Part shown: one piece after another, positions 195 through 52,222 of the stretch
Numbering within the stretch: the stretch's first letter is position 1
Layout of the letters: every line of letters starts with the position of its first letter
Origin: a virus
Taxonomy: Duplodnaviria > Heunggongvirae > Uroviricota > Caudoviricetes
DNA length: 64,000 nt
Reading direction: 5' to 3' (one strand)
Virus record (IMG/VR): IMGVR_UViG_3300015177_000008
Span: 32,001-96,000 of that record
Position numbers and translations under genes: made by a program
Notes under the pieces: generated by a model
The model's database searches: none
What the model saw: the letters and a program-made list of their open reading frames with translations, nothing else
What the model was told of the DNA's origin: nothing

Positions 195-197
195 GTT

Positions 198-494: not shown

Positions 495-787
495 ATGTAT
501 AAGGGTAATAACCGGCTAAGTCCGGTTATTTTTTTAAATGCCATTTATTAAATACACCTCCAATTCTACTCCGTATAAACATATAAGGTTATAAGCCGGA
601 ATTAATTATTTATTTAGGGAACACCTTCGACGATCTCGCTTTTATTTCTAGGACTTTCGTCCCTGCAAAAAACTAAAAAAAACACTTGCAATCTTTTTTT
701 GCGTATCGATAATTGAACTCGTCGAAAGCGAACTGGCTAACGACAGTAAAAAATAAATTCATTTTAATTTTTGTAAGGAATAAAACC

Positions 788-1438: not shown

Positions 1439-1450
1439 TTAATGGAATCT

Positions 1451-1472
1451 GGCGCCCACTATGGGCGCTTTT
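1451..1472 (+). terminator. Intrinsic terminator-like hairpin (ggcgcccactatgggcgc + TT)
   Basis: Perfect inverted repeat GGCGCCCA/TGGGCGCC with short T stretch right after the 788-1438 stop. Confidence 0.5.
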
Positions 1473-1485
1473 AAGGAGCTTAATC

Positions 1486-1716
1486 ATGTTTATGATTATC
1501 GCTGGCGTTAACGTGCGCAATGAATATTTTGTTAATCGCATCGCTGGGATCGCTGGTTACGCTGGGCGCGCAGTCGAGCTTATAGATGAAACGACGCGCA
1601 AAATTGACTTATTGAGCGACCAGGAGCGAAAAAAAGCAGACGTGAATGACGCTGATATATTTTTAATGTTAAAAGCGTTTGTAGAAATGGGATTTGAAAT
1701 CAGTTTACATAAATAA
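1486..1716 (+). CDS. Small hypothetical protein (76 aa)
   Basis: ORF with SD taaggag 8 nt upstream of ATG; followed by hairpin plus T-run. Confidence 0.5.
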   Translation: MFMIIAGVNVRNEYFVNRIAGIAGYAGRAVELIDETTRKIDLLSDQERKKADVNDADIFLMLKAFVEMGFEISLHK

Positions 1717-1721
1717 AATCG

Positions 1722-1746
1722 AGCGCCCACTATGGGCGCTTTTTTC
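1722..1746 (+). terminator. Rho-independent terminator (same hairpin as 1451-1468, then TTTTTT)
   Basis: agcgcccactatgggcgct followed by tttttcg immediately after stop of 1486-1716. Confidence 0.65.
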
Positions 1747-1769
1747 GTTTCCAATACTTCCACCATAAC

Positions 1770-1793
1770 GCGCCAATGATGGCGCTTTTTTTT
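1770..1793 (+). terminator. Second rho-independent terminator (gcgccaatgatggcgc + T8)
   Basis: GC-rich hairpin followed by 8 T. Confidence 0.6.
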
Positions 1794-2207
1794 ATTGTCT
1801 TTGACTCACTCCAACAACATAAAAATAAGCGCAAAAATAACGCCATAGACGAGCTTTTATATCCTTACCAGCATATACCCATTACTTAGCGCATTAACGC
1901 GCTTAAAACGCGTTATATTGCGTTATGGTGTATGGTTAATCATTGGCTTTTAGTCTTGCTTTATGATCCGCGTTTATTTGTCGGCGCGGATCGGCATTTT
2001 GTTTTGTTCCGTATCCGCTCGCGTATTATGTGCGCGTGATTTTTCACATAATCACACCACTTAATCACGTATGTGATTACGCTACGAAAGAAATCTGGAT
2101 GTCTCAGGCGACGAAAGTCATCATGATTTCCCCGCTCACCTGTCCGACAACCGCTGGTTGGATTCCACCAGCTTCCCGATGTTTTTTCTACATAAAGGCG
2201 AATGCAG

Positions 2208-2281
2208 CCGTTTCCCGAAAAAATCCTGGCCGTTTCCCGTCGGCTCATGAATACGTTCCTCGCCGTTTCTGAAAATTTCCC
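2208..2281. repeat. Three direct copies of CCGTTTCCCG-type motif (same family as the array at 6694-6831)
   Basis: ccgtttcccgaaa (2208), ccgtttcccgtc (2230), ccgtttctgaaaatttccc (2262) in a convergent intergenic region. Confidence 0.4.
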
Positions 2282-2332
2282 TGCGGCAGCTGGTGGCTAT
2301 AGAGAAAGGGCCGTTTCTGGCCCTCTTCTCAG

Positions 2333-2815
2333 TTACACGCCATCAAGGATGTGGATGCGGTTGCTTGCGTATACATTCAACATAAAGTTAGCGCAAAACA
2401 GTTTCCATGTATCAACGCCAGCGGCATACGTAATGTTTTTGCATTTTATTGCATTGTTGGCGATCCGCATCCCCTGCGATACTGCTTTATCGTCGGAAAA
2501 TTTGAACGACGATTGAGTTTTAATCCAGACAGAAATCTGCGTAGCGAACTCAATCAGCTTGGACTGGCAGAATCGCCCGGAGCGCACCGGAAAGACGAAC
2601 GTTCCGAATCCAGAATTTACCACATACGCTTTCTCAAATACCCGCGAGTAACGACGATTGCCAATGATGTCGCGTGCAATAATGCATTTTTCTTGTGCTG
2701 ACAGTTCTACCGTCTCATTGTCGCGCCATGCACCAAGTACTCGTTTTTCAATGTCAGAGAACGTTACAGCGATATTGCCATGTGCGGGTGCGTTTACAGT
2801 AGCGATAAAATTCAT
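2333..2815 (-). CDS. Hypothetical protein (160 aa)
   Basis: ORF; AAACAA..TTGTTT motif 22-40 nt upstream of ATG. Confidence 0.55.
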   Translation of the reverse strand: MNFIATVNAPAHGNIAVTFSDIEKRVLGAWRDNETVELSAQEKCIIARDIIGNRRYSRVFEKAYVVNSGFGTFVFPVRSGRFCQSKLIEFATQISVWIKTQSSFKFSDDKAVSQGMRIANNAIKCKNITYAAGVDTWKLFCANFMLNVYASNRIHILDGV

Positions 2816-3018
2816 GATTAATTCCTTATCGTAAATAACAAATTGTTTTCTTGTTGGTGTTAATTATCGTTGTACGAATAAGGCGTCAAAGTGGAAAGTT
2901 GCGGTAGCCGGACGGGAACAGGTGGGTTTGTCGGTTGCCTGGAGGTAAGAGGTTGGTGTTTTTAGCCTGCGGGGAACAGGATGGTCATTTAAGGCCACCA
3001 CTGCTGGTGGCCTTGTTT

Positions 3019-3951
3019 TCAACTGGAATAAGAATAATCTGTATTGATGAGTAAAGGCGCATCATCCACTAATCCTGACAGAAACCAGCGAGCAGTCCCG
3101 TAAAGTTCAAGGGCGTCAAGATAGCCTTCATGCAGTGCACCAACCCCAAACACATCATTATCAGCCATAGCTACCGCATCTACGGCCAGATACTCTATGA
3201 GTTCTTCCATGCTTTTTATATTTATATCGTCTAAATTCTCCAGTTTGTTCTCAATCTCATTGAAAGGGATATCCGGCATCGAATGCACTATGATTTTTGG
3301 CACATCATTCTCATTATTTACCTCCACAATAACAATTCCATACTCTGTAAAAAGAGAACTAAAGAATCTATTAAACTCTAAATTAACAAAAGATGCCGAA
3401 CCATTTAAACGCTCAACATATGGGGAACGAAAAGCTGAATGTAAATTATTTTTTCTACTTTCCTTGCCATATTCTATAATCAACTCTTTATTTTTGATCT
3501 TCTCGAGTATTCCACCTAGCTCCTCTACAATTAAAGCGCCAGTGTTTTCTCTTTCTTTTGATACTATAGTTGAAAGACTGATCAAGGCTTCTGTTATACT
3601 GTTATTAGAAACGATCAGATGAAATAGCTCCAGCATAGCCAATCGACCACTATCAGTGAACGTAACAAAGTTTATTGCATCTATTTCATTTTTAATCGCA
3701 AGAAACTCACATTTATTTTTGATGTTTTCCCGAATTGACATCTCCACACGCTGTCTTATTCTCAACACCTGCTTAAAGTAAGTATTTTCAAAACATTCGA
3801 CAGAAAATGTCTTCTTACCATCATTCACAATAGCCAATCTGTATTCATATTCAAGACCATTAAGTTCAAGGCAATCACTGTCATATTGGGACCCATCTTT
3901 AACTGAAAACAATTCACTAATGTCAATTTGTCCCAAAAATACTGGTTTCAT
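3019..3951 (-). CDS. Hypothetical protein (310 aa), AT-rich
   Basis: ORF with SD gagga upstream of ATG; no recognisable motifs. Confidence 0.55.
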   Translation of the reverse strand: MKPVFLGQIDISELFSVKDGSQYDSDCLELNGLEYEYRLAIVNDGKKTFSVECFENTYFKQVLRIRQRVEMSIRENIKNKCEFLAIKNEIDAINFVTFTDSGRLAMLELFHLIVSNNSITEALISLSTIVSKERENTGALIVEELGGILEKIKNKELIIEYGKESRKNNLHSAFRSPYVERLNGSASFVNLEFNRFFSSLFTEYGIVIVEVNNENDVPKIIVHSMPDIPFNEIENKLENLDDINIKSMEELIEYLAVDAVAMADNDVFGVGALHEGYLDALELYGTARWFLSGLVDDAPLLINTDYSYSS

Positions 3952-4088
3952 TTTTAATTCCTCGTTTGTTTTCGATGTGATAATTATCGCTGAATGAAAT
4001 AGGCTAAAAAGAAGATTTGTAAGGCAACTATCTGGAAGTAAGGCAAAGGGTGGTCATTTAAGGCCACCAGCATTGGTGACCTTATTCT

Positions 4089-4370
4089 TCAGTGGAGCAG
4101 ACCGATGTCGATGGTATCCCCTGAATCATCCACACGGATCATCAGCATGGCAAAGGCGTTTAGTGGATAGCTTGCGTGCCATTCAGGGAAGCGGTCATCT
4201 CGCATGAAGTCGGCAATGTCATAAACGCATCCCTCAAAGTGGAAGAATCGCGTGCTTACCTGCTCGTCATAATCCACATGATCCATTTCTTGCTGTTCTT
4301 TTTCCGGCAAATCCAGCCATGATTCAAGGAATACATTTTGTGCTTTAGTGGTAATGGTGAAGTCAGTCAT
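4089..4370 (-). CDS. Hypothetical protein (93 aa)
   Basis: ORF with SD ggaggtg; follows a 46-codon ORF in operon-like arrangement. Confidence 0.5.
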   Translation of the reverse strand: MTDFTITTKAQNVFLESWLDLPEKEQQEMDHVDYDEQVSTRFFHFEGCVYDIADFMRDDRFPEWHASYPLNAFAMLMIRVDDSGDTIDIGLLH

Positions 4371-4374
4371 TCTT

Positions 4375-4515
4375 CACCTCCATTTTGATAGAAAATCATC
4401 CATCTCAAGATAGCCATTAAGCTCCTGCTCTGACATGATGATGTTTTCCATGCTTCTGATAGCCTCAAGTAACGACTCCCGATCTGACGAAGCGACAGTA
4501 ACAATGTATTCCATA
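4375..4515 (-). CDS. Small ORF (46 aa), hypothetical
   Basis: ATG at 4515 (MEYIVTVASSDRES...) downstream of motif copies at 4533-4596; below ORF-track length cutoff. Confidence 0.3.
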
Positions 4516-4641
4516 TTATTTCACCACCTAATAAACACGTTGTTTTCTTGTTGTTGTAATTATCGCGGTGTAGATAAGGCAGAAAACAAATTGTTATCGG
4601 GTATAAGAAAATGGCGCGGTTTACGCGCCATTCAAAGAGGA

Positions 4642-5037
4642 TTAAGCGAATACGCTTTCAGGGATTAAGGTGTCAGCAGGAATGCCGGATGTAATGCGCA
4701 GACCATACTGACCAATCCAGGTGGTGCTGGTGTTCAGGCTGGAGGTGAATACGGAATTAACCATATTCATCATGGTTTCAAACACCTCTTCATCAACCTG
4801 GCGGAAGTAGTTCTCGATTTTCAGCAGCAGCGGGTCAGTTGCATCGAGAATGGACTGGTATTGAGTCGCGTACTCGCCGCCGGAGGCATCACCTTTACGC
4901 ACGATCGTACTGGCCTGTACTTCGGCACCAGTTTCGGTGTTGTACGTAACAACGGTGATTTTTGCCACATTCTTACCTTCGGCGGTTTCAGAGGCATAGT
5001 AAACATCAACTGTCAGTTTTTCGCGTTTAACGGTCAT
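4642..5037 (-). CDS. Hypothetical protein (131 aa)
   Basis: ORF; upstream palindrome gtaagtatgtacttac (5081-5096) and TATAAAATA box. Confidence 0.55.
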   Translation of the reverse strand: MTVKREKLTVDVYYASETAEGKNVAKITVVTYNTETGAEVQASTIVRKGDASGGEYATQYQSILDATDPLLLKIENYFRQVDEEVFETMMNMVNSVFTSSLNTSTTWIGQYGLRITSGIPADTLIPESVFA

Positions 5038-5101
5038 TTCACTCTCCGTAGTGTCTTGATTATTTTTCTATTTTATAGCCGTAAGTATGTACTTACAATA
5101 C

Positions 5102-5129
5102 AAAAAAGCCCCGTAAGGATGGCGGGGCT
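5102..5129 (-). terminator. Rho-independent terminator (minus strand)
   Basis: On the minus strand agccccgccatccttacggggct followed by TTTTTT; lies just downstream of the 5164-5475 gene. Confidence 0.55.
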
Positions 5130-5163
5130 GTCGTACTGTCGACTAATTACCACTTGCACATTA

Positions 5164-5475
5164 TCAGGCTATTGCCATCACTGATGCTCTCTGAATTTCT
5201 TGCTGGGCCACGCGGTTAACTTCCATCAAAGCCAGTTCGAGCTGATGTTCCGGCCACATTCTTTGAAATGCCACCCAGCCTTTTCCACGCTGGCGACGAA
5301 CATTCATTACATAACGAGTAAAGGTGTTTTTATCGAAAGACACCGCTGTTTCACGGAACAGACGAATAGAGGTCCCATTGGCAACGATGTCCAGCAAAGT
5401 TAATTGAGCAACCAGTGCAGGCTTCTCTTTTCTCTTCTGGTCTTTGTCCAGACCAAGAACCAATGATTTTTTCAT
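5164..5475 (-). CDS. Hypothetical protein (103 aa)
   Basis: ORF 5164-5505 trimmed to ATG 5475 (MKKSLV); motif AAACAACTTGTTT 12 nt upstream. Confidence 0.5.
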   Translation of the reverse strand: MKKSLVLGLDKDQKRKEKPALVAQLTLLDIVANGTSIRLFRETAVSFDKNTFTRYVMNVRRQRGKGWVAFQRMWPEHQLELALMEVNRVAQQEIQRASVMAIA

Positions 5476-5628
5476 CACAACTCCGTAAACAACTTGTTTT
5501 CTCAATGGCGTAAATAATACCAGTAAGAAAACGGCTACAAAGCATATTGATCAGGCGCATGAGCGATATGCAGGTTCTTCCCTGCGGCTATAGAGAAATT
5601 AAGCCAGCAATGCTGGCTTTGGTTGGGG

Positions 5629-5958
5629 TTACTCGAATACTTCAAGAAACTCCTGAACGTCCCAATGCTGGACGAGGTGAAGATAGACCTTAGAAATCAC
5701 GTCATTTTCGCTATCGCATGTGAAGTAGTACTTCTGGCTGCGGTTGTATGTGTCCACACAAAATTCGCTCATATCCATAAAGTCAGCATCTTCACCCATG
5801 TCGCAAATCATCAAAGCAGGTGCGTCATCACGAGTCATCAGCTCCAGCACCCATCTTGAATTGATCAGAGTGGAAGACCAACCTTCTAACTCATAAAACT
5901 GATCAAACTCTTTTTGAGTTAATTTCTTGATTTGGTTGATGTCGATATTTGTAAACAT
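5629..5958 (-). CDS. Hypothetical acidic protein (109 aa)
   Basis: ORF 5629-6024 trimmed to ATG 5958 (MFTNID); motif AAACATGTTGTTT 13 nt upstream. Confidence 0.5.
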   Translation of the reverse strand: MFTNIDINQIKKLTQKEFDQFYELEGWSSTLINSRWVLELMTRDDAPALMICDMGEDADFMDMSEFCVDTYNRSQKYYFTCDSENDVISKVYLHLVQHWDVQEFLEVFE

Positions 5959-6096
5959 AAAGCAATCCTTAAACATGTTGTTTTCTGAATTGCGTAAACA
6001 ATACCAGTAAGAAAACGGCCACAAAGTATATCGTTACGGTGTTGCGCTGCCCGGAGGTTAATAGCGACAAAAGCCACCGTGCTGGTGGCCTCACTC

Positions 6097-6315
6097 TTAA
6101 TCTTCGTCGCCCGGGAACTCGCTGTGTACCGCGTCCACCAGCTCCCGCTTTTCATCTTCACTCAGCAGGTGCCAGATATCCTTCCCCTTGGGCGGTTCCC
6201 CTTCTGCCGGGACGAACGACCACAACTTGCGGTACAACTCCGGCCCCACTGCATCCAGACACTCAGCCAGGGAATCCACGCCCCACACCTCAACCGTCAC
6301 AGGCATCTTAATCAT
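6097..6315 (-). CDS. Hypothetical acidic protein (72 aa)
   Basis: ORF starting atgattaag with SD gaggatg; motif copy at 6348-6365. Confidence 0.45.
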   Translation of the reverse strand: MIKMPVTVEVWGVDSLAECLDAVGPELYRKLWSFVPAEGEPPKGKDIWHLLSEDEKRELVDAVHSEFPGDED

Positions 6316-6693
6316 CTCTTCATCCTCACTTCGTTTATATAACGTCTAAACATGTTGTTTACTTGTTGGTGTTATTATCGCAATAAGACAAAGGCGGAAA
6401 AGGATTTTATGTCGGGAAAGCCAGGCGGGTAGTGAGTATCCGGGAACGACACGGGAACCAGTATTTACGATATTCTGCTCTACGCGCGCCGCAGGGCTGG
6501 TGGGCAGAATTTTCTTCTCCCCGAAAACCTACTGAAATCGATTGTGACCCGCTGACTGTCTGGCACAATTACGCTGTAGCTGGGCATTCAGAGGGAATCC
6601 AGCGGTAAGCAAGTCCGCCTACGTGAGCGCCTCTCTTCTTCCCGCACATTACAGGTGGGTAGCCGCAACTCTCCCTCTCGCTATACCGGTACG

Positions 6694-6959: not shown

Positions 6960-7500
6960 TTTTATCTGTCTCAACCTCTCTATAGGCGTTAATGCTCACT
7001 CCTTCCAGAATGTTCTATACGGCGACTATTTCTGTTGGTGAATTGGGTGTGTTGTTTTCTCTGTCGGTGTATGTGGTTTCGTTCGTTTTGCGGTGGTTCT
7101 TCTATGGGGTGTTCTCGTCGTTTTGGTGATTGTTCTTCTCCGTGTATGGAGTAATGGCAGGTGGGCGATTCCTTTCGTTGTTGTGTTTGAGTTGTTTGTC
7201 TGGAGTGTGTGAAAGGCTTTTGTAGTTATTCGTGTATTGGGTAATGGCGTTTCCCGTGATTGTTCTGTTTCGTGTCTTTTGGGATTGAGAGAAACCTTGC
7301 GGTTACAGGCTTCGTTGGGGTTTCAGTGATTCTGGTGTTTCTTCGCTGTTTGGGGAATGGCGTGTCGTGGGTATCGCGCGTATGAATGTTTTCGGATTGC
7401 CTGTGAAAGTTAGGTTGGTTGTCCGGTAGCCTGGGAAGAAGAGGTGGGTCTTTTCGGTAGCCTGCCATAAAGAGGTTGGTTGTTTTTGGTAATGGCATAT
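6960..7500. repeat. Strand-skewed (GT-rich on plus) noncoding region with degenerate tandem repeats
   Basis: Recurring core G(T/C)TGT(A/T)T(G/T)GG(A/G)(G/T)AATGGC at about 7141, 7231, 7344, 7485; only low-complexity ORFs. Confidence 0.45.
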
Positions 7501-7897
7501 GTGTTATTTAGTTGTTTTGTTATACCTGAAAATAAGTTGTTTATATGGTTGTGTAACGCAACGGGAGCGATTTTGAGCGTGTGTTTTTGTTGGTAGTGTG
7601 TTTGGTCGTCTGCGGTGAAAATTGGACGCTGTGGCGCTGTCTGCTGCGTAGAATTACGGGTATAAGCAGTGATGTGTGAAAACGTCAATTTTTTAGACCA
7701 AATCGGGTGAAAGCGTTGATGTTTCGTTGATCTGTTATTCAGTTGTTTTCTTGATTGTATAAACAACCATAACTTATTGATATTTAAGGATATGATTGCG
7801 GGTATGGAAGGGGAGTAGTGGCGATCAACGGATTCTTATAGAAAAGAATCAAATTGTGACCGCCATTATCAACTGATTGATTTGTTTACTTGTGTAG

Positions 7898-8296
7898 TCA
7901 GTTCTCGAAATGAATAGGGTCAACGTAATGCCGCTCACCGCTTTTACCATTACACAGCACTGTAACTTTCGCCTTTTCACTCCAGGCTGAGTATAGAAAG
8001 TTCCCATCAGGTTGAACATGGTAACGAGAGAAGTAAACATCGCCGACTGAGGCGTCGAACATGTTCCTATCTTTTTCACTTTGGGCAAGCGAGATGGATA
8101 TCACCGAATTCCCATTTGGGGAAACGATTTTAAATTTATTCCCTATATCCATAACAATATTGTAACCAGGTAATTGCTTGTGTGTTTCCGGATCTATTTT
8201 CATGCATCGTGGGTACACGATAGTGTTAGGCTCTTCAACTGGCGTGGCATTAGCAGAAAGCACAAAAAATATTAGTGCCAATGGTGCATATTTCAT
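7898..8296 (-). CDS. Secreted protein (signal peptide), function unknown
   Basis: 132-aa ORF; N-terminus MKYAPLALIFFVLSANA; SD gaggg. Confidence 0.5.
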   Translation of the reverse strand: MKYAPLALIFFVLSANATPVEEPNTIVYPRCMKIDPETHKQLPGYNIVMDIGNKFKIVSPNGNSVISISLAQSEKDRNMFDASVGDVYFSRYHVQPDGNFLYSAWSEKAKVTVLCNGKSGERHYVDPIHFEN

Positions 8297-28987: not shown

Positions 28988-29632
28988 CTAATGAACGGTC
29001 ACTCGGCCACAGAACCGGTTTTCTATCTTTTCTACAGCGTTATCTAGCATTCTCATCACTGATCTGGCTCTTGCTTCAACCGTGCGATATCGGTTGGAAA
29101 CGACGAAGGTTTGCAGATCCCCCCTTTGCGGATGCAGGTGAATTTTTGTCAGTTCCCCGCACATCAACGCATCAATACGAGCGACATACAGACGGTCTAA
29201 TGATGCTCGTTGTGATCGCAAGTAATCTCGCTCTGAGAGAGCGACTCCCGGGCGTAGGCCAGCAATGGCGTTAAAGTTTGAAATAGCAGTTTTGTGGCAA
29301 AACTTTTCGATATCGAGGGCTAACTCAATACATCGATCTTCATTGGTATGGCCGACCAAATCCAACGTGTAGGCCATAACATCAGCAGGTGTGCGATCGA
29401 TAACAAAGCCTTCAACACCACGCGTAAGTAGCTCTATATGCTTTGCTATTTCCATTTGAATCTGAAGCCGCTCATATAGAGACATAGACTCACCTACTCG
29501 AACACCGAGTCGGCTCATCAAACTTCCGACACCAGCATCCACGTAAGGGATTCCGTAATGTTTGTCGATATATTTTGCCAGGGTTGTTTTCCCACTGCCC
29601 TGAGCACCAGTGATCCCAATCCGGTAATCCAT
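28988..29632 (-). CDS. P-loop NTPase, putative (deoxy)nucleotide kinase
   Basis: Walker A GITGAQGSGKTTLAKY at N-terminus; ATG overlaps the DHFR stop (TAATG). Confidence 0.6.
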   Translation of the reverse strand: MDYRIGITGAQGSGKTTLAKYIDKHYGIPYVDAGVGSLMSRLGVRVGESMSLYERLQIQMEIAKHIELLTRGVEGFVIDRTPADVMAYTLDLVGHTNEDRCIELALDIEKFCHKTAISNFNAIAGLRPGVALSERDYLRSQRASLDRLYVARIDALMCGELTKIHLHPQRGDLQTFVVSNRYRTVEARARSVMRMLDNAVEKIENRFCGRVTVH

Positions 29633-30108
29633 TACGACCTTCTGTATACGATCTGCGAAAAGCCAGGCTCTTCCTCGCTGGCTCGTTGGGTATAAGCTGT
29701 TTCAACAGGCACAAAGCCTAAATTACGCATCATGCTTGCCGGGAAGAATGCATCGGCGTTTGGCACATCAACGCCGATGTGGGAGAGCCAAATCTCTTCA
29801 ACATGCGGCATGAATAGCGAGTAAATTTGTTCCCCGCCAATCACCCACACAGGCTCTGGTAATCGCAACACATCATCCACACCAGCAGGGTAGAATCCAT
29901 TTGGTACAAAGCCATGAGAGCGCGTCAAAACGAGGTTATGACGCTCTGGAAGAGGGCGTTTGAGACTTTCCATCGTTTTACGCCCCATAACGACAGTGGC
30001 GTTTTTGGTGAGTCTCTTAAATAGCTTCAGATCGGTAGAACAACGCCAGGGCAGTTCGTTCGCTATGCCGATCTCATAGTTACGGCCAACAGCAGCTATC
30101 ATCTTCAT
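29632..30108 (-). CDS. folA: Dihydrofolate reductase
   Basis: 158 aa; MIAAVGRNYEIG, ELPW, VVMGRKT, WVIGGEQIY motifs typical of DHFR. Confidence 0.9.
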   Translation of the reverse strand: MKMIAAVGRNYEIGIANELPWRCSTDLKLFKRLTKNATVVMGRKTMESLKRPLPERHNLVLTRSHGFVPNGFYPAGVDDVLRLPEPVWVIGGEQIYSLFMPHVEEIWLSHIGVDVPNADAFFPASMMRNLGFVPVETAYTQRASEEEPGFSQIVYRRS

Positions 30109-46552: not shown

Positions 46553-48892
46553 TTACTCTTCTACTGACTCGGTGGGATTGTCTTTTGATCTCCGGTCGTC
46601 GATTGCCTGTAAAGCCGCAATGATTTCAGCTAGTGGCTTCTCCCGATACATCTCGACGATCTGTGATTTGGTGTATTTCTTGTCACCAATTTCTACTCGA
46701 CCGCTGGCGTTCTTTGGCAGGTATCCTTCTTCCAGCATGTACTCGACGAGCGACTCGATAACGTCGAGGCCACGAGTAGGATCGAAGTAGAATTTCCAGG
46801 TGCATTTGCCATACGGTGGTGCAACTTTGTTTTTGATGCACTCTGCGCCTACGTCCTGACCGATCTTCTCTTTCCCATCCTTCATCACCGATGCACCGAG
46901 ACGGATGCGCACAGAAGCGTAAAACTTCGGTGAATCGCCGCCTGGAGACGTAGTAGGGTCGCCAAACATTACACCGATTTTTGTGCGAACCTGATTCAAG
47001 AAGATGATGCAGGCGTTGTATTTGCGTGCCCACAAAGCCAGAGTGGGGAAGTTCGCACTCGTCGCACGAGCCAGCGCCGTATTGTCGTTCATGTTTAGCT
47101 GATCTTTGTCTTTGGCAGTGCCTTCAGCCATCTTTTCGAACTTCTCGGCTTTGGAGTTCGGAACCATAGACGCAAGTGAGTCAGCCACGATACAGATAGG
47201 TGCTGATTCAGGAATAAGCTCTTCATCACGTACCAATTTAAGAATTGTGCCGATCAACTCTACAGAGTCTTCGAAGGTATCAGGCTGCTTGTATACCCAC
47301 TGACCGTCATCCTCATCTGCATTCAAACCATTGGCTACAGCCAGGCCAACGTCAAAACTGTTTTCATGATCGAGGAATACCGCCAGACCATCTTGTTTTT
47401 GAGCGGAGATCATCGCTGCTGTTGCAAGGAATGTGTTGTGGCTGATAATCCCGTTAGACCAGAAAGAGTGTGTTTCCGGCATCGCTACGTCGAACGTTGG
47501 TGCTTCACCTTCCTCAATAGCCACGACTTCGTCGTAGAACAAGTTAGAGCCAATTACCGCTGCCAGTTGTGCAAACAGATGCTCGTTAAAACGATTCTTT
47601 CTGCCAATGAAGGAGACATAGATTTCTCGCAGTTTGTCTATTCCGACACGATCGCCGCGGCCAATAACGTGGTCTACCAGAGCGTAGTCTTCACGGGTGG
47701 TCTTGGTGAGCGACTCGTAGAGTGATTTCACTAAGCCGCTGATGTGCGGAACATAGCCTGAGTAAGTGCGGTCAAAACCAATGTCCCGTTTGGTTGCCAC
47801 TGATAAACGTGCCGGAGATTCGAAACCAATCGTTGACAGAAAAAGGTCGTAATTAGAGCCACTGAATGACAGCCGGTAATATGTATTTTCATAACCCGCG
47901 ACGTGTTTTTCAGAGATAGTTGACGTAATCCCCAGATTCAGGAGCATGAGGCGAATTTGCTGTAGCAGCAGCCCACTCGCGCTCACAACCTCAATGCAGC
48001 GACCATCATTGACGTGGCATTCCAGCTCAAAGTAGCCGCGAAGGAATGCAATTTGAGCCTCGCTATTGGCGCGACGCACACTCAACGGAACCTGCTTGCC
48101 AGCAGCTTTCTCATACTCCAGACCATATTCTTTAAAAAGCAGCGAACGCACCTCTTTGCTAAACAGCACATGGTCTTCCGAGCCGTTATGTTTTCTCGTA
48201 ACTGGCATCTTGTCTGATACCAGCGAAATGAGGCGGTAGTACTCATCCTTGATGAAAGGATCTGTGTTAGAAAAATTCACTGAATTTTCAGAGGCCACGT
48301 ATCCGTCAGCAATTAAATAGCCCATCAGTTTTGCGATATTGGCATCCAGGTGCTGATCGCCGAATTGATGTGTGCCAACCATTGAAGGAATCGTGTCGCC
48401 TACACTGATTTTTTCAGCATGTCGCCAGACGACATTACCTAAGTCGTCAACCACACGGATTGGGTGACGGAACGTAGCCTCGATATAACCGCCTGATGCC
48501 AGCTTAATACGCTTGAATTTGCGACGGTTGTTCCATGTCAGGTGTGAGGTCTTCTCTATCACGCCATTTTCATTGATGAGTCCAACGTTATGCTCTACAT
48601 CGCGAGTAGTGCATGTCGCTTTGTACCCTTCAATCTCAAACAACTCTTTCACTGTTACCATTCCACGCTCCGTCAGCAGCATGGTGTCTGCGGTAACACA
48701 TTTCCCCGCACTTGGAGGACCGAATACTTCGACGATACGACCACATGGGAAGCCGCCATCGTAACGACCAGAAATAGCTTTGTTTAACGGTGGAAAGCCT
48801 GTATCAATCCAATGAGTTACTTTCTGAATTTCGTCGTTGCTACCGATTTTCTTTTTCAGAGCAAGTGCCAGTGCGGATTTTCCTTTTGCCAT
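46553..48892 (-). CDS. recA: RecA-family recombinase interrupted by an intein (779-aa precursor, about 357-aa mature protein)
   Basis: N-extein ends GPPSAGK; C-extein has IFLNQVRTKIGVMFGDPTTSPGG and KFYASVRIRLG, closely RecA-like; SD aggagcc. Confidence 0.9.
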   Translation of the reverse strand: MAKGKSALALALKKKIGSNDEIQKVTHWIDTGFPPLNKAISGRYDGGFPCGRIVEVFGPPSAGKCVTADTMLLTERGMVTVKELFEIEGYKATCTTRDVEHNVGLINENGVIEKTSHLTWNNRRKFKRIKLASGGYIEATFRHPIRVVDDLGNVVWRHAEKISVGDTIPSMVGTHQFGDQHLDANIAKLMGYLIADGYVASENSVNFSNTDPFIKDEYYRLISLVSDKMPVTRKHNGSEDHVLFSKEVRSLLFKEYGLEYEKAAGKQVPLSVRRANSEAQIAFLRGYFELECHVNDGRCIEVVSASGLLLQQIRLMLLNLGITSTISEKHVAGYENTYYRLSFSGSNYDLFLSTIGFESPARLSVATKRDIGFDRTYSGYVPHISGLVKSLYESLTKTTREDYALVDHVIGRGDRVGIDKLREIYVSFIGRKNRFNEHLFAQLAAVIGSNLFYDEVVAIEEGEAPTFDVAMPETHSFWSNGIISHNTFLATAAMISAQKQDGLAVFLDHENSFDVGLAVANGLNADEDDGQWVYKQPDTFEDSVELIGTILKLVRDEELIPESAPICIVADSLASMVPNSKAEKFEKMAEGTAKDKDQLNMNDNTALARATSANFPTLALWARKYNACIIFLNQVRTKIGVMFGDPTTSPGGDSPKFYASVRIRLGASVMKDGKEKIGQDVGAECIKNKVAPPYGKCTWKFYFDPTRGLDVIESLVEYMLEEGYLPKNASGRVEIGDKKYTKSQIVEMYREKPLAEIIAALQAIDDRRSKDNPTESVEE
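47435..48700 (-). mobile_element. Intein (422 aa) with LAGLIDADG-type homing endonuclease domain, inserted in the RecA P-loop
   Basis: Starts with Cys (CVTADTMLL), ends IISHN followed by Thr+1; LAGLIDADG-like blocks LMGYLIADGYV and LRGYFELECHVNDG. Confidence 0.85.
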
Positions 48893-48894: not shown

Positions 48895-49167
48895 TCAGGC
48901 TCCTTTTGTTTCGTTGATTCGTTTTAAAGCGGCGGATTCATCGAATACAATCGCATCGTGGTTAAGGAGTCTGGATACACGAGCGAGGATTTTTACGACT
49001 TGCTCGCTGACTAATCCAAACTCGCGATCTGTCGCTTTCATTCCGACAGCGCCCAGAATTGACGGCAGTGCGATGACAGCGTACTCACCGTGATAAAAGA
49101 CAATCTCTTTTGCCAGTTGGGCAGGGGTGGTTGTAGCGCCATTGATAATCGATTTAAGCATTAGCAA
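48895..49167 (-). CDS. Hypothetical protein (90 aa)
   Basis: Start overlaps the FEN gene stop. Confidence 0.45.
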   Translation of the reverse strand: MLMLKSIINGATTTPAQLAKEIVFYHGEYAVIALPSILGAVGMKATDREFGLVSEQVVKILARVSRLLNHDAIVFDESAALKRINETKGA

Positions 49168-50105
49168 TACCTTTCGAATGGAAGAACAAACACTTCAAGG
49201 TCTTCAAGGAACGAACGGAAATTCAGCTCGTAGCACAGTTGCTCGAATGCTTTCACGTCACGATTGCCTTTGATTGTTTCGATTTCGGTAGGCGGAAACT
49301 TCGTCTCAATCAGGTTCATTAGCGTGATGTTTCTCTTGAACGCTTCGAGCATTCGACAGCCTGTTTTCTCGTTGAAGGCATTCTTCGCTAGTTTGTTGAA
49401 GGCGGTCTTATGACGCCCTTTATTAACCACGATTGAGCCGTCGTTGATGCCGCGTACCATCGTTGCGACACTTCCCCATTCATGCAGCAGCTCTTTCGCA
49501 CCGCCAGCACCAATGCCACCAACACCGCTAATGTTGTCCGAGTTATCGCCTTGTAATGCTTTTGCTTCCAAAAATGCGCGAGGCGTGGCGAATCCTGTCA
49601 GCTCCGCAAATTGCTCAAAATTAACCTGCTTGTTTTTGGCGTCTTCACGCAGGCTTACCCAGCTTACGTTTTCACGAACTAACTGAAGCCAGTCGCTATC
49701 GCCTGTTAACAGATAGATGTGTTCAACGGTTGGCTGCGGTGCCATGCGGGATACCAGCAGCCCGGCCAGATCATCCGCTTCTGCATCTTTTGCAATGAGT
49801 TGGGTAACTCCAAGCGCGGTCATCATTTTGAGGATGTATGGCTTCTGGATAGCAAAGCCTTCCTTCATCTTTTTCATATCAGGATCGCCGTCGCGATTTG
49901 CTTTGTAGTCCGGGTAAAAGTCGCGACGCTTGTCACTAAATCCATCCCAAAGAATCATAGGTCGGGCATGGAGGATGGAGGCATAACGACGGACGTTCTT
50001 AACAAAGCCGAAAGCAGCCTGTACTTCCATTTCGCCGTTGTGCAATTTGTCAGATTGTTGATGGTAATAACCCAGGCTATTGCCATCTACGAAGAGATAA
50101 TTCAC
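49161..50105 (-). CDS. 5'-3' exonuclease / flap endonuclease (FEN, T4 RNase H-like)
   Basis: NYLFVDGNSLGYY, LTGDSDWLQL, helix-hairpin-helix region GVGGIGAGGA; start moved to GTG 50105 after SD ggaagg because a terminator hairpin occupies 50124-50150. Confidence 0.8.
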   Translation of the reverse strand: MNYLFVDGNSLGYYHQQSDKLHNGEMEVQAAFGFVKNVRRYASILHARPMILWDGFSDKRRDFYPDYKANRDGDPDMKKMKEGFAIQKPYILKMMTALGVTQLIAKDAEADDLAGLLVSRMAPQPTVEHIYLLTGDSDWLQLVRENVSWVSLREDAKNKQVNFEQFAELTGFATPRAFLEAKALQGDNSDNISGVGGIGAGGAKELLHEWGSVATMVRGINDGSIVVNKGRHKTAFNKLAKNAFNEKTGCRMLEAFKRNITLMNLIETKFPPTEIETIKGNRDVKAFEQLCYELNFRSFLEDLEVFVLPFERYC

Positions 50106-50123
50106 CGGTACATTCCTTCCAAA

Positions 50124-50150
50124 AAGTAAGGCGTCCGTAGACGCCTTACT
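50124..50150 (-). terminator. Rho-independent terminator after the SSB gene (minus strand)
   Basis: On the minus strand cagtaaggcgtctacggacgccttac followed by TTTTT. Confidence 0.5.
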
Positions 50151-50165
50151 GGTCACGTAATGGGA

Positions 50166-51194
50166 TTACAGAGAGTCCAGCTCTCTCAGTAGGTCATCCA
50201 GACCTTCATCTTCCGTCGCAGATGCGGTTGCTACAGATGTCGCTGCGACTGCTTCAGACTCTTTGACTGATACGGCAACGGCAGCGGAACTTGCCTCTGG
50301 TTTAAATTCAGTTTCAACGGCACGGAGGATTTCTTCATCAACCAGACTGGTTGGTTCAGAAGCCGGTGTGTGCGCGGTTGCTACAGCCGTCGCTCCTTCT
50401 GTATGACCAGTGACAGAGCCAAATCCAGGTAGTGCCGCAGCCGATGTTTTCGCGGTTGAGGAAATTGCTGGTGCAGATGCTGCGGCAGTTGGTGCAGCGA
50501 TGCCAATCAGACGACCCATAGTGCGAACTGTCGACAGAAGACGAGTTTCATCAGCCTGATTTGCGTATGCGATCAGATCATGCTGGGTGTTCCAGAATTT
50601 ATCTTCGATATCGCCTTTGTAGACTTTACGCTTAGGCGAGACGTCATATTTGGTATCGCGACCAGAGCCAGTACGTTTAATCAGGAATGCGTAGCCTTCC
50701 TCTTTGCTCAGTGGATTGCCGATATCATCAGCGATGTCTTCGGTGATTGCTTTGCAGATATCATCGAATACAGTAGACGGCAGCTCGATTAACTGGCATT
50801 TCTCAGCATCTGCGAAATCCTCACGAGCAGAAAGAATGCCGTTGACCAGGTAGCGAGGAGTGGCACGCATTTGACCGATGCGTTCTTCCATTGCTTTGTT
50901 ACCCTTGTGACGAGCGCGACCTTCCATAACCATTTCGCATAGCTGACAAGCGCGACCGTGAGTATGTTGCTCACAAATATAAGCGTTGGTTGCTTCTTTA
51001 CCTTCCTCGTTCTGATACTTAACGTAGTGCATACCGAAAGTCTGGAAGAACTTACCGTTTGGGTCGTCTTTATTCGGGAAGATGCGGATATAGTTGACGC
51101 CGTCTTTTAAGCGAGTCAGATCAACGTTGTTGCCACGTTTGGCGGCAATGTCTTCACGAGTTTTGTTAAGCAAATCAAGTAATGTCTTAGACAT
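50166..51194 (-). CDS. Single-stranded DNA-binding protein, T4 gp32-like
   Basis: Cys/His cluster CEQHTHGRACQLC (Zn subdomain-like), Ala/Ser/Thr-rich linker, acidic C-terminal tail; SD aaggag. Confidence 0.65.
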   Translation of the reverse strand: MSKTLLDLLNKTREDIAAKRGNNVDLTRLKDGVNYIRIFPNKDDPNGKFFQTFGMHYVKYQNEEGKEATNAYICEQHTHGRACQLCEMVMEGRARHKGNKAMEERIGQMRATPRYLVNGILSAREDFADAEKCQLIELPSTVFDDICKAITEDIADDIGNPLSKEEGYAFLIKRTGSGRDTKYDVSPKRKVYKGDIEDKFWNTQHDLIAYANQADETRLLSTVRTMGRLIGIAAPTAAASAPAISSTAKTSAAALPGFGSVTGHTEGATAVATAHTPASEPTSLVDEEILRAVETEFKPEASSAAVAVSVKESEAVAATSVATASATEDEGLDDLLRELDSL

Positions 51195-51311: not shown

Positions 51312-51743
51312 TCAACGGGGAGTAATAAAGCGTTCAGAGCCTAATCGCTCTAATTCAACGATGGCCATCTTTGACGCCTGAACGATCATGTCTCGGCGAT
51401 GCGAAAAGGCGGCGACAGCATGTTTGTATATGTCTGCGATGTGCCGTGCTTCATCCAACTTCTGCCGTTTAGACAGATACTGTGGGTTTGTTTTAACCTT
51501 AGCGTCCAGTACAGACTCGTTGAACTTAATGCCGTTCATACTCAAGTTCTTACGCTCTGTGTCGTATAGCTTTGCTTCAACAGCTTCAAGGTTAAGTTTT
51601 GCCTCTGCGACATCTCGATCTGCCTGCGCTAGTTTTGACCCATACTCCATTAAAAGCCGTGGCTGTTTACGCCATACTTCCTCAAGGTTGTCGCGGTCGA
51701 ACTCCAGATCGGCCATGATTTTAGAAAAAATATCAGTGTTCAC
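51312..51743 (-). CDS. Hypothetical protein (143 aa); position suggests a recombination mediator (UvsY-like), speculative
   Basis: ORF upstream of and co-oriented with the SSB gene. Confidence 0.45.
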   Translation of the reverse strand: MNTDIFSKIMADLEFDRDNLEEVWRKQPRLLMEYGSKLAQADRDVAEAKLNLEAVEAKLYDTERKNLSMNGIKFNESVLDAKVKTNPQYLSKRQKLDEARHIADIYKHAVAAFSHRRDMIVQASKMAIVELERLGSERFITPR

Positions 51744-51997: not shown

Positions 51998-52222
51998 ATG
52001 AAGCAACATCCGAATAAGCATATTCAAGCAGCCATTGACTATGCATTAAGTAAAGGCTGGATCTGGGTAGCAGCTGGTGGTGCTGCACATTGTTTTTGCA
52101 GACTGCGATGCGGTAATCCAGAAGGTGAACACAAAACTCACCAAATGAGCGTATGGTCGACTCCGGGTAATCCCGAAAACCATGCCAAACAGATCAAACG
52201 AATGGTTGATCGTTGTAAATGA
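51998..52222 (+). CDS. Small protein, possibly HicA-like toxin (tentative)
   Basis: 74 aa; LSKGW...GGAAH...STPGNP pattern loosely resembles HicA; terminator ggcggcattagccgcc follows. Confidence 0.3.
   Translation: MKQHPNKHIQAAIDYALSKGWIWVAAGGAAHCFCRLRCGNPEGEHKTHQMSVWSTPGNPENHAKQIKRMVDRCK

What the first reader, a model, noticed from the sequence alone, without database searches (positions are those of the whole stretch)
46553..48892. RecA-family recombinase split by a 422-aa LAGLIDADG intein in the P-loop
The RecA-like ORF is 779 aa. Residues 65-486 start with Cys, end with His-Asn followed by Thr, and contain LAGLIDADG-like blocks; removing them restores a continuous GPPSAGK-TFLATAAM Walker A region. 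Insertion at the nucleotide-binding loop means recombinase activity depends on protein splicing.
Basis: partly seen in the sequence, partly recalled or inferred. Interest (0 to 1): 0.6.

Follow-up and report, generated by a model that had tools for sequence, protein, structure and literature searches.

The report
Known intein in phage-plasmid RecA P-loop
The gene really is a RecA-like recombinase interrupted in its ATP-binding loop by a self-splicing, mobile protein element (intein), but this exact intein was already catalogued in 2015, so it is a correct and ordinary finding.

Summary
ORF 46553..48892 (-) encodes 779 aa. Residues 65-486 form a canonical intein (Cys1, block B TxxH, two LAGLIDADG motifs, His-Asn, Thr+1) inserted between the Lys and Thr of the Walker A motif GPPSAGK|T of a RecA-family recombinase. 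A natural intein-less allele (phage CMS-2020a) encodes exactly the predicted 357-aa spliced product (356/357 identical), so the boundaries are exact.

The element is not new. Topilina et al. [quoted passage not shown] RefSeq names some copies "intein-containing recombinase RecA".

What I add:
- The host gene is not chromosomal recA. It is the recombinase of an SSU5-like phage-plasmid and lies next to gp32-like SSB, a weakly UvsY-like protein and an exonuclease.
- The intein is a presence/absence polymorphism: 114 occupied versus 129 empty sites in complete E. coli genomes.
- The intein is 97-99.8% identical between alleles whose exteins are saturated at synonymous sites.
- Short flanking co-conversion tracts accompany it.

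Together these indicate recent homing. Splicing and endonuclease activity are inferred, not shown. Interest is low.

The parts
46553..48892 (-). Precursor gene: RecA-family recombinase with intein, 779 aa (about 86.6 kDa)
   Evidence: ORF. Pfam RecA + LAGLIDADG_3 + Intein_splicing. phrog_9666 matched end to end, 1-779/779. 100% identical to NZ_CP117002.1 4413-6752.
48701..48892 (-). N-extein, aa 1-64, ending in Walker A GPPSAGK
   Evidence: Aligns to E. coli RecA ...GPESSGK.
47435..48700 (-). Intein, aa 65-486 of the precursor (422 aa, 47.5 kDa)
   Evidence: Boundaries, confirmed by the empty-site allele. Same coordinates (65-486) in Table 1 of PMC4513877.
48371..48700 (-). N-terminal splicing region of the intein: block A with Cys1 (CVTADTMLLT); block B GGYIEATFRHPIRVV with Thr76/His79 (intein numbering)
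   Evidence: TIGR01445 intein_Nterm 65-147. Motif positions. Blocks conserved in relatives. Beta-strand-rich in the model. The inner boundary is approximate.
47546..48352 (-). LAGLIDADG homing-endonuclease domain plus the helical region that follows it (intein residues about 117-385)
   Evidence: Pfam LAGLIDADG_3 at 279-356. phmmer alignment to the TliVMA intein and PI-PkoII over intein 117-283. Foldseek matches to 7qss, 1dq3, 2cw7. Boundaries are approximate.
48296..48328 (-). LAGLIDADG motif 1, LMGYLIADGYV, acidic residue Asp132 (intein numbering)
   Evidence: Aligned to ...GYLIADG... of 7qsu.
48011..48046 (-). LAGLIDADG motif 2, FLRGYFELECHV, acidic residue Glu227, with Cys in place of the usual Gly
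   Evidence: Glu227 aligns with the motif-2 Asp of 7qsu. ELEC/ELES is conserved in relatives P0005, P0006, P0008, P0009.
47435..47545 (-). C-terminal splicing region: block F PTFDVAMPETHSF and block G WSNGIISHN (His421, Asn422)
   Evidence: TIGR01443 intein_Cterm 466-487.. Nearly invariant columns P401, T402, D404, V405, T410, S412, F413.
46553..47434 (-). C-extein, aa 487-779, beginning with Thr+1 (the Walker A Thr), plus the stop codon
   Evidence: RecA core aligns through this region.
48895..49167 (-). Small conserved ORF directly upstream of the recombinase (same operon-like block), function unknown
   Evidence: phrog_2207, E=3e-53, unknown function. Conserved in the Klebsiella and Enterobacter loci.
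49161..50156 (-). 5'-3' exonuclease (FEN-type), part of the recombination module
   Evidence: Pfam 5_3_exonuc_N E=2.2e-24 and 5_3_exonuc E=7e-12. phrog_107.
50166..51194 (-). T4 gp32-like single-strand DNA-binding protein
   Evidence: Pfam gp32 E=1.7e-66. phrog_1192 E=9.9e-116.
51312..51743 (-). Possible UvsY-like recombination mediator (weak support)
   Evidence: phrog_2058 (unknown function) E=5.7e-69. phrog_231 UvsY-like only E=1.9e-4. No Pfam hit. Annotated UvsY in phage Cyrano.

Best explanation
This is a canonical (class 1) mobile intein with a nested double-motif LAGLIDADG homing endonuclease. It is inserted between the Lys and Thr of the Walker A motif of the RecA-family recombinase of an SSU5-like phage-plasmid of E. 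coli. The gene is translated as an ~86.6-kDa precursor that cannot bind or hydrolyse ATP properly because the P-loop is split. The inferred splicing path is: Cys1 makes the N-S acyl shift; Thr+1, which is also the Walker A Thr, attacks the thioester; Asn422 cyclises; and the 39-kDa recombinase is released with an intact GPPSAGKT loop, together with a free 47.5-kDa intein. The free intein is inferred to act as a homing endonuclease that cuts intein-less alleles of the same gene when two related phage-plasmids meet in one cell. Repair from the intein-bearing copy then spreads the element. The architecture, exact boundaries, empty-site alleles and population pattern are shown here. Splicing chemistry and DNA cleavage are inferred from conserved residues and evolutionary signatures.
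For: - Architecture and catalytic residues. Cys1, Thr76/His79 (block B), Asp404/His411 (block F), His421-Asn422, Thr+1, and Asp132 and Glu227 in the two LAGLIDADG motifs.
- Fold: AlphaFold model with pLDDT 79.8 and pTM 0.83. Its best PDB matches are whole endonuclease-bearing inteins: TliVMA 7qss (E=2.5e-19, TM 0.68), PI-PfuI, PI-PkoII, PI-SceI.
- Exact excision: the intein-less allele in phage CMS-2020a equals the predicted ligated extein, 356/357 residues.
- Polymorphism: in complete E. coli genomes 114 plasmids carry the occupied gene and 129 an uninterrupted site, none chromosomal. In PLSDB, 240 are occupied versus 565 uninterrupted.
- Horizontal movement: the intein is 97.0% identical (dS 0.09) between the window and a Klebsiella allele whose exteins are 78.6% and 81.1% identical (C-extein dS about 2, N-extein beyond the correction limit). 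The Klebsiella and Enterobacter inteins are 99.8% identical on exteins that are 84-85% identical (dS 1.0-1.3). Each extein lineage has its own intein-less twin at 97-99.5% identity.
- Co-conversion: all occupied alleles share GCG GGG AAA|ACA at the junction. Empty alleles have GCA GGG AAA|ACG (E. coli type) or GCT GGT AAA|ACC (Klebsiella type). The lineage-specific sequence resumes within about 15 nt upstream and 8 nt downstream.
- Constraint: intein dN/dS is about 0.15.
- Relatives: inteins 28-45% identical sit at the same GxxxxGK|C...HN|T site in other RecA proteins.
- Biology: an occupied element (Cyrano/pLF82) produces virions and is induced by genotoxic stress (PMC9928086).
- Prior description at the same coordinates: PMC4513877.
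Against: - No experiment shows splicing or DNA cleavage for this intein. The only paper in the searched library that discusses it reports modelling only, as data not shown.
- LAGLIDADG motif 2 has Cys where Gly is usual, so full endonuclease activity is not guaranteed.
- The C-terminal 14 residues of the model have low confidence (pLDDT 46-50), so active-site geometry could not be checked.
- The intein dN/dS rests on only 38 substitutions.
- Because the intein arrived recently in each lineage, the strong purifying selection on the exteins mostly predates it. It does not by itself prove that occupied alleles still yield active recombinase.
Confidence: 0.85

Rival explanations
1. The intein still splices but its endonuclease is dead. 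It is inherited vertically, or moved passively by ordinary homologous recombination between co-resident phage-plasmids, and not by endonuclease-driven homing.
For: Motif 2 reads ELEC rather than the usual D/E-G. More distant relatives (P0007, P0012, P0013) have clearly degenerate endonuclease regions, showing that this intein family does lose the nuclease. No cleavage data exist.
Against: Both catalytic acidic residues are present and align with those of solved inteins. ELEC/ELES is conserved among relatives that keep full-length nuclease domains. The intein is 97-99.8% identical on exteins with saturated dS, and conversion tracts are only a few to ~15 nt. That pattern is hard to obtain by RecA-type recombination between flanks only ~80% identical, and it is typical of double-strand-break repair at the insertion site. 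Intein dN/dS is about 0.15 across the whole intein, with substitutions spread through the nuclease region.
Confidence: 0.12
2. The intein no longer splices, so occupied alleles are in effect recombinase pseudogenes tolerated by the phage-plasmid.
For: Splicing has never been shown. The recombinase may be dispensable, since some plasmids carry IS-disrupted copies (L007 C-extein, L008 intein).
Against: All splicing residues are intact. The 779/780-aa frame is open in every occupied allele examined across E. coli, Klebsiella and Enterobacter, and RefSeq annotates them as intact CDS in the listed hits. About 47% occupancy in E. coli without accumulation of frameshifts argues against a decaying gene. 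The occupied phage-plasmid Cyrano is a productive phage.
Confidence: 0.05
3. The intein has been co-opted as a conditional post-translational switch. Splicing, and hence recombinase activation, would be triggered by a signal such as ssDNA, DNA damage, redox state or temperature, as shown for the archaeal Pyrococcus horikoshii RadA intein at the equivalent P-loop site. This is not exclusive of the best explanation.
For: The insertion point is the same as that of the Pho RadA intein, whose splicing is controlled by its native exteins (PMC4513877). The intein has Cys1 plus three further cysteines (30, 228, 235) that could in principle form a redox trap. The host element switches between plasmid maintenance and lytic growth and is induced by genotoxic stress.
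Against: There are no data. Roughly half of otherwise near-identical elements lack the intein, so it is not needed for regulation. Recent horizontal spread fits a selfish element. Topilina et al. report that a Pho RadA-like extein-intein arrangement is sterically not feasible for the E. coli precursor model.
Confidence: 0.1

Closest known systems
RecA 'c2' intein of Enterobacteriaceae (Topilina, Novikova, Stanger, Banavali & Belfort, Nucleic Acids Res 2015, PMC4513877, Table 1)
   Same: Identical insertion coordinates (65-486) and the same P-loop site. The strains listed include E. coli MS 145-7, whose plasmid NZ_CP146657.1 carries this gene at 98.3% identity over 100% of its length, with an intein that is 100% identical. 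This is the same element.
   Different: The paper files it as a bacterial RecA intein. It does not report, in the text read here, that the host gene is plasmid/phage-plasmid borne. It also does not report the empty-site polymorphism, the intein/extein divergence contrast or the co-conversion tracts. No splicing experiment on this intein was reported there.
Pyrococcus horikoshii RadA intein (insertion point c1; PDB 4e2t)
   Same: Same position at the end of the recombinase P-loop (GxxxxGK|T) with Thr as the +1 residue. The splicing domain matches structurally (Foldseek E about 1e-4). The host protein belongs to the RecA/RadA superfamily.
   Different: Pho RadA carries a mini-intein without an endonuclease. 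Sequence similarity is low, and independent invasion was inferred by Topilina et al.. Conditional splicing is demonstrated for Pho RadA and is untested here.
Mycobacterium tuberculosis / M. leprae RecA inteins (sites a and b)
   Same: Inteins in a RecA-family recombinase. The Mtu RecA splicing domain is a weak structural match (2in0/3ifj, E about 2e-3).
   Different: Different insertion sites (252-691 and about 206-570), not the P-loop. The host is the chromosomal housekeeping recA. The NCBIfam model for that protein (NF007072) scores 100.8 bits against a cut-off of 1024 here.
Endonuclease-bearing archaeal inteins TliVMA (7qss), PI-PfuI (1dq3), PI-PkoII (2cw7); yeast PI-SceI
   Same: Same two-part architecture (HINT splicing domain with a nested double-LAGLIDADG nuclease). 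These are the best whole-chain structural matches (E=2.5e-19 to 3.5e-15, TMq 0.59-0.68 for the four archaeal entries 7qss, 1dq3, 7qsu and 2cw7; PI-SceI chains are weaker, E about 1e-8 and TM about 0.42) and the only sequence-level PDB matches.
   Different: 15-22% sequence identity for the archaeal entries (9-12% for PI-SceI). Different host proteins (V-ATPase, RNR, DNA polymerase) and different organisms.
Intein-less recombinase of SSU5-like phage-plasmids (e.g. Escherichia phage CMS-2020a, Klebsiella phage ST13-OXA48phi12.3)
   Same: Same gene and synteny. Exteins are 97-99.5% identical within a lineage.
   Different: Uninterrupted Walker A. Different synonymous codons at the three positions flanking the insertion point.

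Membership tests
Intein (canonical class 1) | In-frame insertion in a host protein, with no stop codon and continuous translation through both junctions | tested here: met
   Single 779-aa ORF.
Intein (canonical class 1) | Nucleophilic Cys/Ser at intein position 1 | tested here: met
   Cys65 of the precursor is intein Cys1. It is conserved in all relatives that include the junction.
Intein (canonical class 1) | Block B TxxH motif | tested here: met
   ATFRHP, Thr76/His79. The AT..H motif is kept in five of the six relatives that cover block B; P0007 has Pro-Thr there.
Intein (canonical class 1) | C-terminal His-Asn followed by Cys/Ser/Thr at +1 | tested here: met
   His485-Asn486 | Thr487. TIGR01443 scores 17.8 bits against a cut-off of 15.6.
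Intein (canonical class 1) | HINT splicing-domain profile and fold | tested here: met
   Pfam Intein_splicing 44.3 bits (cut-off 35.8). TIGR01445 35.5 bits (cut-off 24.5). Foldseek matches to mini-inteins and Hedgehog HINT domains.
Intein (canonical class 1) | Precise removal restores a conserved, contiguous host protein | tested here: met
   The natural empty allele equals the predicted ligated extein at 356/357 residues. The RecA Pfam hit becomes continuous. 129 E. coli genomes have the uninterrupted site.
Intein (canonical class 1) | Autocatalytic protein splicing | not testable with these tools
   Needs expression and detection of the 39-kDa ligated product and the 47.5-kDa intein.
LAGLIDADG homing endonuclease (double-motif, intein-nested) | Two LAGLIDADG motifs, each with a catalytic acidic residue | tested here: met
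   LMGYLIADGYV (Asp132) and FLRGYFELECHV (Glu227). They align to the motifs of 7qsu. Pfam LAGLIDADG_3 scores 63.4 bits against a cut-off of 22.5. Motif 2 ends in Cys, not Gly.
LAGLIDADG homing endonuclease (double-motif, intein-nested) | Alpha-beta-beta-alpha-beta-beta-alpha nuclease fold inserted in the HINT domain | tested here: met
   The model (pTM 0.83) matches 7qss, 1dq3, 2cw7 and I-DmoI.
LAGLIDADG homing endonuclease (double-motif, intein-nested) | Site-specific cleavage of the intein-less allele, leading to homing | not testable with these tools
   Only indirect support: the occupied/empty polymorphism, a near-identical intein on diverged exteins, and short co-conversion tracts.
RecA 'c2' intein allele (PMC4513877) | Insertion after the Lys of the RecA Walker A, residues 65-486, in Enterobacteriaceae | tested here: met
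   Same coordinates. The plasmid of strain MS 145-7 named in the paper carries the gene with a 100% identical intein.
Housekeeping bacterial RecA (TIGR02012 equivalog) | Score above the curated equivalog cut-off | tested here: not met
   153.7 bits for the spliced extein against a cut-off of 325.3.
Housekeeping bacterial RecA (TIGR02012 equivalog) | RecA core ATPase domain (Pfam PF00154) | tested here: met
   145.7 bits against a cut-off of 27. Closest solved relatives are bacterial RecA proteins, E=1e-31 to 1e-35.
Housekeeping bacterial RecA (TIGR02012 equivalog) | RecA C-terminal domain (PF21096) and chromosomal location | tested here: not met
   No PF21096 hit at E<=0.01, whereas relatives P0007-P0009 and P0012 carry it. 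All 253 E. coli places are on plasmids, 0 on chromosomes.
T4 UvsX-type phage recombinase | Closer to UvsX than to RecA by sequence | tested here: inconclusive
   phrog_97 'UvsX-like recombinase' E=1.6e-83. Against solved structures, however, T4 UvsX (3io5) scores only E=1.1e-5 and another phage UvsX (9gbg) E=2.2e-9, versus 1e-31 or better for RecA.
T4 UvsX-type phage recombinase | Genomic association with gp32-type SSB and a UvsY mediator | tested here: inconclusive
   gp32 is clear (Pfam E=1.7e-66). The UvsY-like assignment is weak (phrog_231 E=1.9e-4; no Pfam hit).

The most novel reading that the evidence does not exclude
The intein is not merely a passenger. Its endonuclease is currently active in clinical Enterobacteriaceae and is sweeping through SSU5-like phage-plasmids. 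It would act as an interference-competition weapon: it cuts the recombinase gene of intein-less rivals that enter the same cell, and incompatible phage-plasmids must compete there. In addition or instead, the P-loop intein may gate recombinase activation to the lytic or damage-induced state by conditional splicing. Either would make this a tractable E. coli system for intein homing and intein-based regulation in a natural mobile element.
Probability: 0.15. Interest if true: 0.5.

Novelty: already known. Interest (0 to 1): 0.2.

Why it matters
As an annotation matter, the finding is correct and useful. RefSeq labels most occupied copies 'LAGLIDADG family homing endonuclease' or 'hint domain-containing protein', which hides the fact that the gene is a recombinase. 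Empty copies are labelled 'recombinase RecA'. Biologically the intein was catalogued in 2015, so its existence is not news.

The modest added value is context. It is one of the very few inteins native to E. coli and its relatives. It sits on a widespread family of phage-plasmids found in about 4-5% of complete E. coli genomes. It is polymorphic, roughly half occupied. It also shows sequence signatures of recent horizontal spread. That would make it a convenient natural system for studying intein homing and possible conditional splicing in a model organism, if someone tests it.

Tried and rejected
- **Literature.** Searches for 'intein'+'SSU5' found 0 papers. 'intein'+'UvsX', 'intein'+'phage-plasmid' and 'intein'+'pHCM2' gave no relevant description; the hits read were irrelevant. 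The search 'RadA intein'+'P-loop' led to the paper that already lists this intein. 'coli RecA intein' and 'RecA intein'+'Enterobacter' found no further relevant paper, so I found no experimental splicing data. One paper reading failed on a term that was too short, and no supplements were held.
- **Protein search.** The search for homologous proteins with the intein returned only 13 clusters, probably because of its word index. It was enough to show relatives at the same site, but not for a phylogeny.
- **Window identity.** I assumed the window was identical to NZ_CP117002.1 throughout. That is wrong: the first ~6.3 kb differ (86-97% identity with rearrangements) and the rest is 99.6-99.8% identical.
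- **Host protein.** I considered that it is a true UvsX. I rejected this as a firm label because solved RecA proteins are far closer than T4 UvsX. I also rejected 'housekeeping RecA'.
- **Other kinds of insert.** A bacterial intein-like (BIL) or Hedgehog-type HINT domain, or a free-standing endonuclease splitting the gene, was rejected. The insert has His-Asn|Thr+1, a nested LAGLIDADG domain and an uninterrupted reading frame.
- **Extein selection test.** Using extein dN/dS to prove that occupied alleles are functional was rejected as uninformative, because most extein divergence predates the recent intein arrival.
- **Active-site geometry.** It was not assessed, because the C-terminal residues of the model have pLDDT below 50.
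Full report
**Observation**

GPPSAGK occupies residues 58-64 and Cys is residue 65. Ser-His-Asn ends at residue 486 and Thr is residue 487. The insert is 422 aa (window 47435..48700). Deleting it gives a 357-aa, 39.0-kDa protein with a continuous GPPSAGKTFLATAAM; the free insert would be 47.5 kDa.

Profile searches rule out chance:
- On the full ORF, Pfam reports RecA (E=3.4e-36, split in two stretches), LAGLIDADG_3 (63.4 bits, cut-off 22.5) and Intein_splicing spanning 73-486 (44.3 bits, cut-off 35.8).
- NCBIfam reports intein_Nterm at 65-147 and intein_Cterm at 466-487, both above their cut-offs.
- After in-silico excision, the RecA Pfam match becomes a single stretch, 27-281, and rises to 145.7 bits.

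**Exact boundaries from natural alleles**

A megablast of the gene against phage records found occupied copies in Escherichia phages PhiR41_1 and Cyrano and in Klebsiella phage vB_KpnS_p4727. It also found two records of Escherichia phage CMS-2020a that match in two pieces covering 46% of the query. The CMS-2020a allele (L001 3001-4074) is 1074 nt. It translates to a 357-aa protein that is 356/357 identical to the predicted ligated extein. The DNA alignment shows a clean 1266-nt difference between the AAA (Lys64) and ACN (Thr) codons. This is the strongest evidence obtainable without an experiment that residues 65-486 are a discrete inserted element with the boundaries proposed.

**Anatomy of the intein**

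The conserved intein blocks are all present:
- Block A: CVTADTMLLT (Cys1).
- Block B: GGYIEATFRHPIRVV (Thr76, His79).
- LAGLIDADG motif 1: LMGYLIADGYV (Asp132).
- LAGLIDADG motif 2: FLRGYFELECHV (Glu227).
- Block F: PTFDVAMPETHSF (Asp404, His411).
- Block G: WSNGIISHN (His421, Asn422), followed by Thr+1.

In a phmmer alignment to the Thermococcus litoralis VMA intein (7qsu/7qss), Asp132 and Glu227 align with the acidic residues of the two LAGLIDADG motifs. The residue after Glu227 is Cys rather than the usual Gly.

An AlphaFold2 model built on an alignment of ten sequences has mean pLDDT 79.8 and pTM 0.83. It shows a beta-rich splicing domain interrupted by a helical/beta nuclease region. Foldseek against the PDB returns whole endonuclease-bearing inteins as best hits: TliVMA 7qss (E=2.5e-19, TM 0.68), PI-PfuI, PI-PkoII, PhoVMA and PI-SceI. 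Mini-inteins follow, including Pho RadA and Mtu RecA, then Hedgehog HINT and I-DmoI. The last ~14 residues are of low confidence, so I did not assess active-site geometry.

**The host protein**

The spliced extein is a RecA-family ATPase. Its closest solved relatives are bacterial RecA proteins (E=1e-31 to 1e-35). Its GPPSAGKT aligns with GPESSGKT of E. coli RecA. T4 UvsX (3io5) scores only 1.1e-5 and another phage UvsX (9gbg) 2.2e-9.

It is nevertheless not the housekeeping RecA:
- It scores 153.7 bits against the TIGR02012 equivalog cut-off of 325.3.
- It lacks a detectable RecA C-terminal domain.
- Every one of the 253 matching places in 5,426 complete E. coli genomes is on a plasmid, none on a chromosome.

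PHROGs places it in phrog_97, 'UvsX-like recombinase'. A dedicated family, phrog_9666, matches the 779-aa precursor end to end.

Upstream on the same strand lie:
- a small conserved ORF of unknown function;
- a FEN-type 5'-3' exonuclease;
- a T4 gp32-like SSB (Pfam E=1.7e-66);
- a 143-aa protein only weakly similar to UvsY (annotated UvsY in Cyrano).

The window is 99.6-99.8% identical, from position 6347 onward, to plasmid p108_MLI108-3 of E. coli MLI108K3 (NZ_CP117002.1, 108 kb). That plasmid carries RepB, DnaE, NrdAB, ThyA and other phage replication genes. It is related to Cyrano/pLF82, an SSU5-like phage-plasmid that produces virions and is induced by genotoxic stress (PMC9928086). The gene is therefore the recombinase of a phage-plasmid recombination module.

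**Evidence for mobility**

Presence/absence:
- In complete E. coli genomes, 251 carry the gene.
- 114 match at least 80% of the occupied gene.
- 129 have an uninterrupted 200-nt junction probe.
- In PLSDB, 240 plasmids carry the intein (at least 80% of the intein query covered; 248 have any match) and 565 carry the uninterrupted site.
- All 248 PLSDB records with any intein DNA match are at least 90% identical to the window's intein (239 of them at least 95%). They are in Escherichia (123), Klebsiella (71), Enterobacter (41), Citrobacter, Shigella, Cronobacter, Kluyvera and Salmonella. None is in Yersinia, although 63 Yersinia plasmids have the recombinase.

Divergence by segment:

| Comparison | Intein identity | Intein dS | Extein identity | Extein dS |
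|---|---|---|---|---|
| Window vs Klebsiella occupied allele (CP034047) | 97.0% | 0.09 (dN/dS 0.15) | N-extein 78.6%, C-extein 81.1% | about 2 or saturated |
| Klebsiella vs Enterobacter occupied alleles | 99.8% | 0.003 | 84-85% | 1.0-1.3 |

Each extein lineage has an intein-less twin: CMS-2020a for the E. coli type (97.1-99.5% identical) and ST13-OXA48phi12.3 for the Klebsiella type (98.4-99.0% identical).

At the junction, all occupied alleles share GCG GGG AAA|ACA. The empty alleles read GCA GGG AAA|ACG or GCT GGT AAA|ACC. In the Klebsiella and Enterobacter occupied alleles the lineage-specific sequence resumes within about 15 nt upstream and 8 nt downstream.

A young, nearly uniform intein on old, diverged exteins, with a few flanking nucleotides carried along, is the expected footprint of endonuclease-initiated homing. 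It is hard to explain by vertical descent.

**Relatives at the same site**

The intein-only protein search returned few clusters. Those at 28-45% identity are all inteins in RecA proteins, inserted at the same GxxxxGK|C...HN|T(T) position. One sits on a 550-kb contig and has a bona fide RecA C-terminal domain. Three (P0007, P0012, P0013) have lost LAGLIDADG motif 1, the usual decay stage of the intein life cycle.

**Mechanism**

What is shown here: the architecture, the boundaries, the conserved catalytic residues, the empty sites and the population pattern.

What is inferred:
- The ~86.6-kDa precursor lacks a functional P-loop, because Lys and Thr of Walker A are 422 residues apart.
- Splicing proceeds through Cys1, Thr+1 and Asn422, using the Walker A Thr itself as the +1 nucleophile, and restores the 39-kDa recombinase.
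- The excised 47.5-kDa intein cleaves intein-less alleles when related phage-plasmids meet, and repair copies the intein.

I put 0.85 on this canonical reading. Rivals:
- A splicing-competent intein with a dead nuclease (0.12).
- A non-splicing pseudogene (0.05).
- As a non-exclusive add-on, a conditional-splicing switch like the Pho RadA intein (0.10).

**Comparison with what is known**

The decisive point for novelty is in the literature. Topilina, Novikova, Stanger, Banavali and Belfort (Nucleic Acids Res 2015; PMC4513877) mined RadA/RecA inteins. Their Table 1 lists insertion 'c2 (65-486)' for eight E. coli strains (including MS 145-7), Enterobacter cloacae BWH 29, Enterobacter sp. MGH 26 and Salmonella enterica 557928. 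[quoted passage not shown]

The plasmid of strain MS 145-7 (NZ_CP146657.1) carries this gene at 98.3% identity with a 100% identical intein. RefSeq already names the Enterobacter copies 'intein-containing recombinase RecA'. The finding is therefore a correct rediscovery.

In the searched library I found no paper that places the intein on phage-plasmids, documents the polymorphism or the homing signature, or tests splicing. The library is incomplete, so this absence is weak evidence.

**Verdict**

Novelty is 'already known'; interest is 0.2. The residual interest is that this is a polymorphic, apparently still-mobile intein native to E. coli-group phage-plasmids. It would be easy to test experimentally, and its current database names are misleading.

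Noticed in passing
window 7000-7700 (+): About 700 nt of strongly G/T-rich sequence on the + strand: GC skew +0.34 and AT skew -0.32 in the 7001-8000 bin, sequence. It lies in a gap with no annotated gene in the near-identical plasmid NZ_CP117002.1. It contains no tandem repeat. Function unknown.
   Followed up: partly
window ~8994-17056: Chromosome-like cargo inside the phage-plasmid: metG (methionine-tRNA ligase), apbC and a 4.2-kb inverse-autotransporter (intimin/invasin-type) gene, per RefSeq annotation of the 99.8% identical record. It is followed by a low-GC stretch at 17001-19000 (GC 0.31-0.35).
   Followed up: no
window ~29632-30108 (-): A dihydrofolate reductase sits in the thymidylate synthase / nrdAB nucleotide-metabolism block. 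RefSeq names it 'trimethoprim-resistant dihydrofolate reductase DfrA51'. It looks like a phage housekeeping gene carrying a resistance label.
   Followed up: no
window 51998-52222 (+) and the ORF after it: A HicA/HicB-like toxin-antitoxin pair lies divergently next to the recombination module. The 74-aa ORF is; it is annotated HicA toxin / HicB antitoxin in phage Cyrano.
   Followed up: no
L008 (CP059946.1) 1932-2702: In one E. coli plasmid the intein itself is interrupted by a 771-bp insertion. The insertion has IS1-like ends and transposase fragments and an 8-bp target duplication, AATTTTTC, at gene nt 616-623.
   Followed up: partly
L007 (Escherichia albertii CP043255.1) 4580-5742: On a 62-kb plasmid the intein is intact (94% identity), but the C-extein is broken at gene nt ~1770 by a 1163-bp element with transposase-like ORFs. 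The recombinase is therefore dead while the intein reading frame persists.
   Followed up: partly
window 46553-48892 (-) and homologous records: Database naming is inconsistent. RefSeq calls occupied copies 'LAGLIDADG family homing endonuclease' or 'hint domain-containing protein', and a few 'intein-containing recombinase RecA'. Empty copies are 'recombinase RecA', and phage PhiR41_1 has 'hypothetical protein'.
   Followed up: yes
window 1-6346: The first ~6.3 kb of the window differ from the otherwise 99.6-99.8% identical plasmid NZ_CP117002.1: blocks at 86-97% identity with gaps and offsets. This indicates a variable accessory or mosaic region.
   Followed up: no
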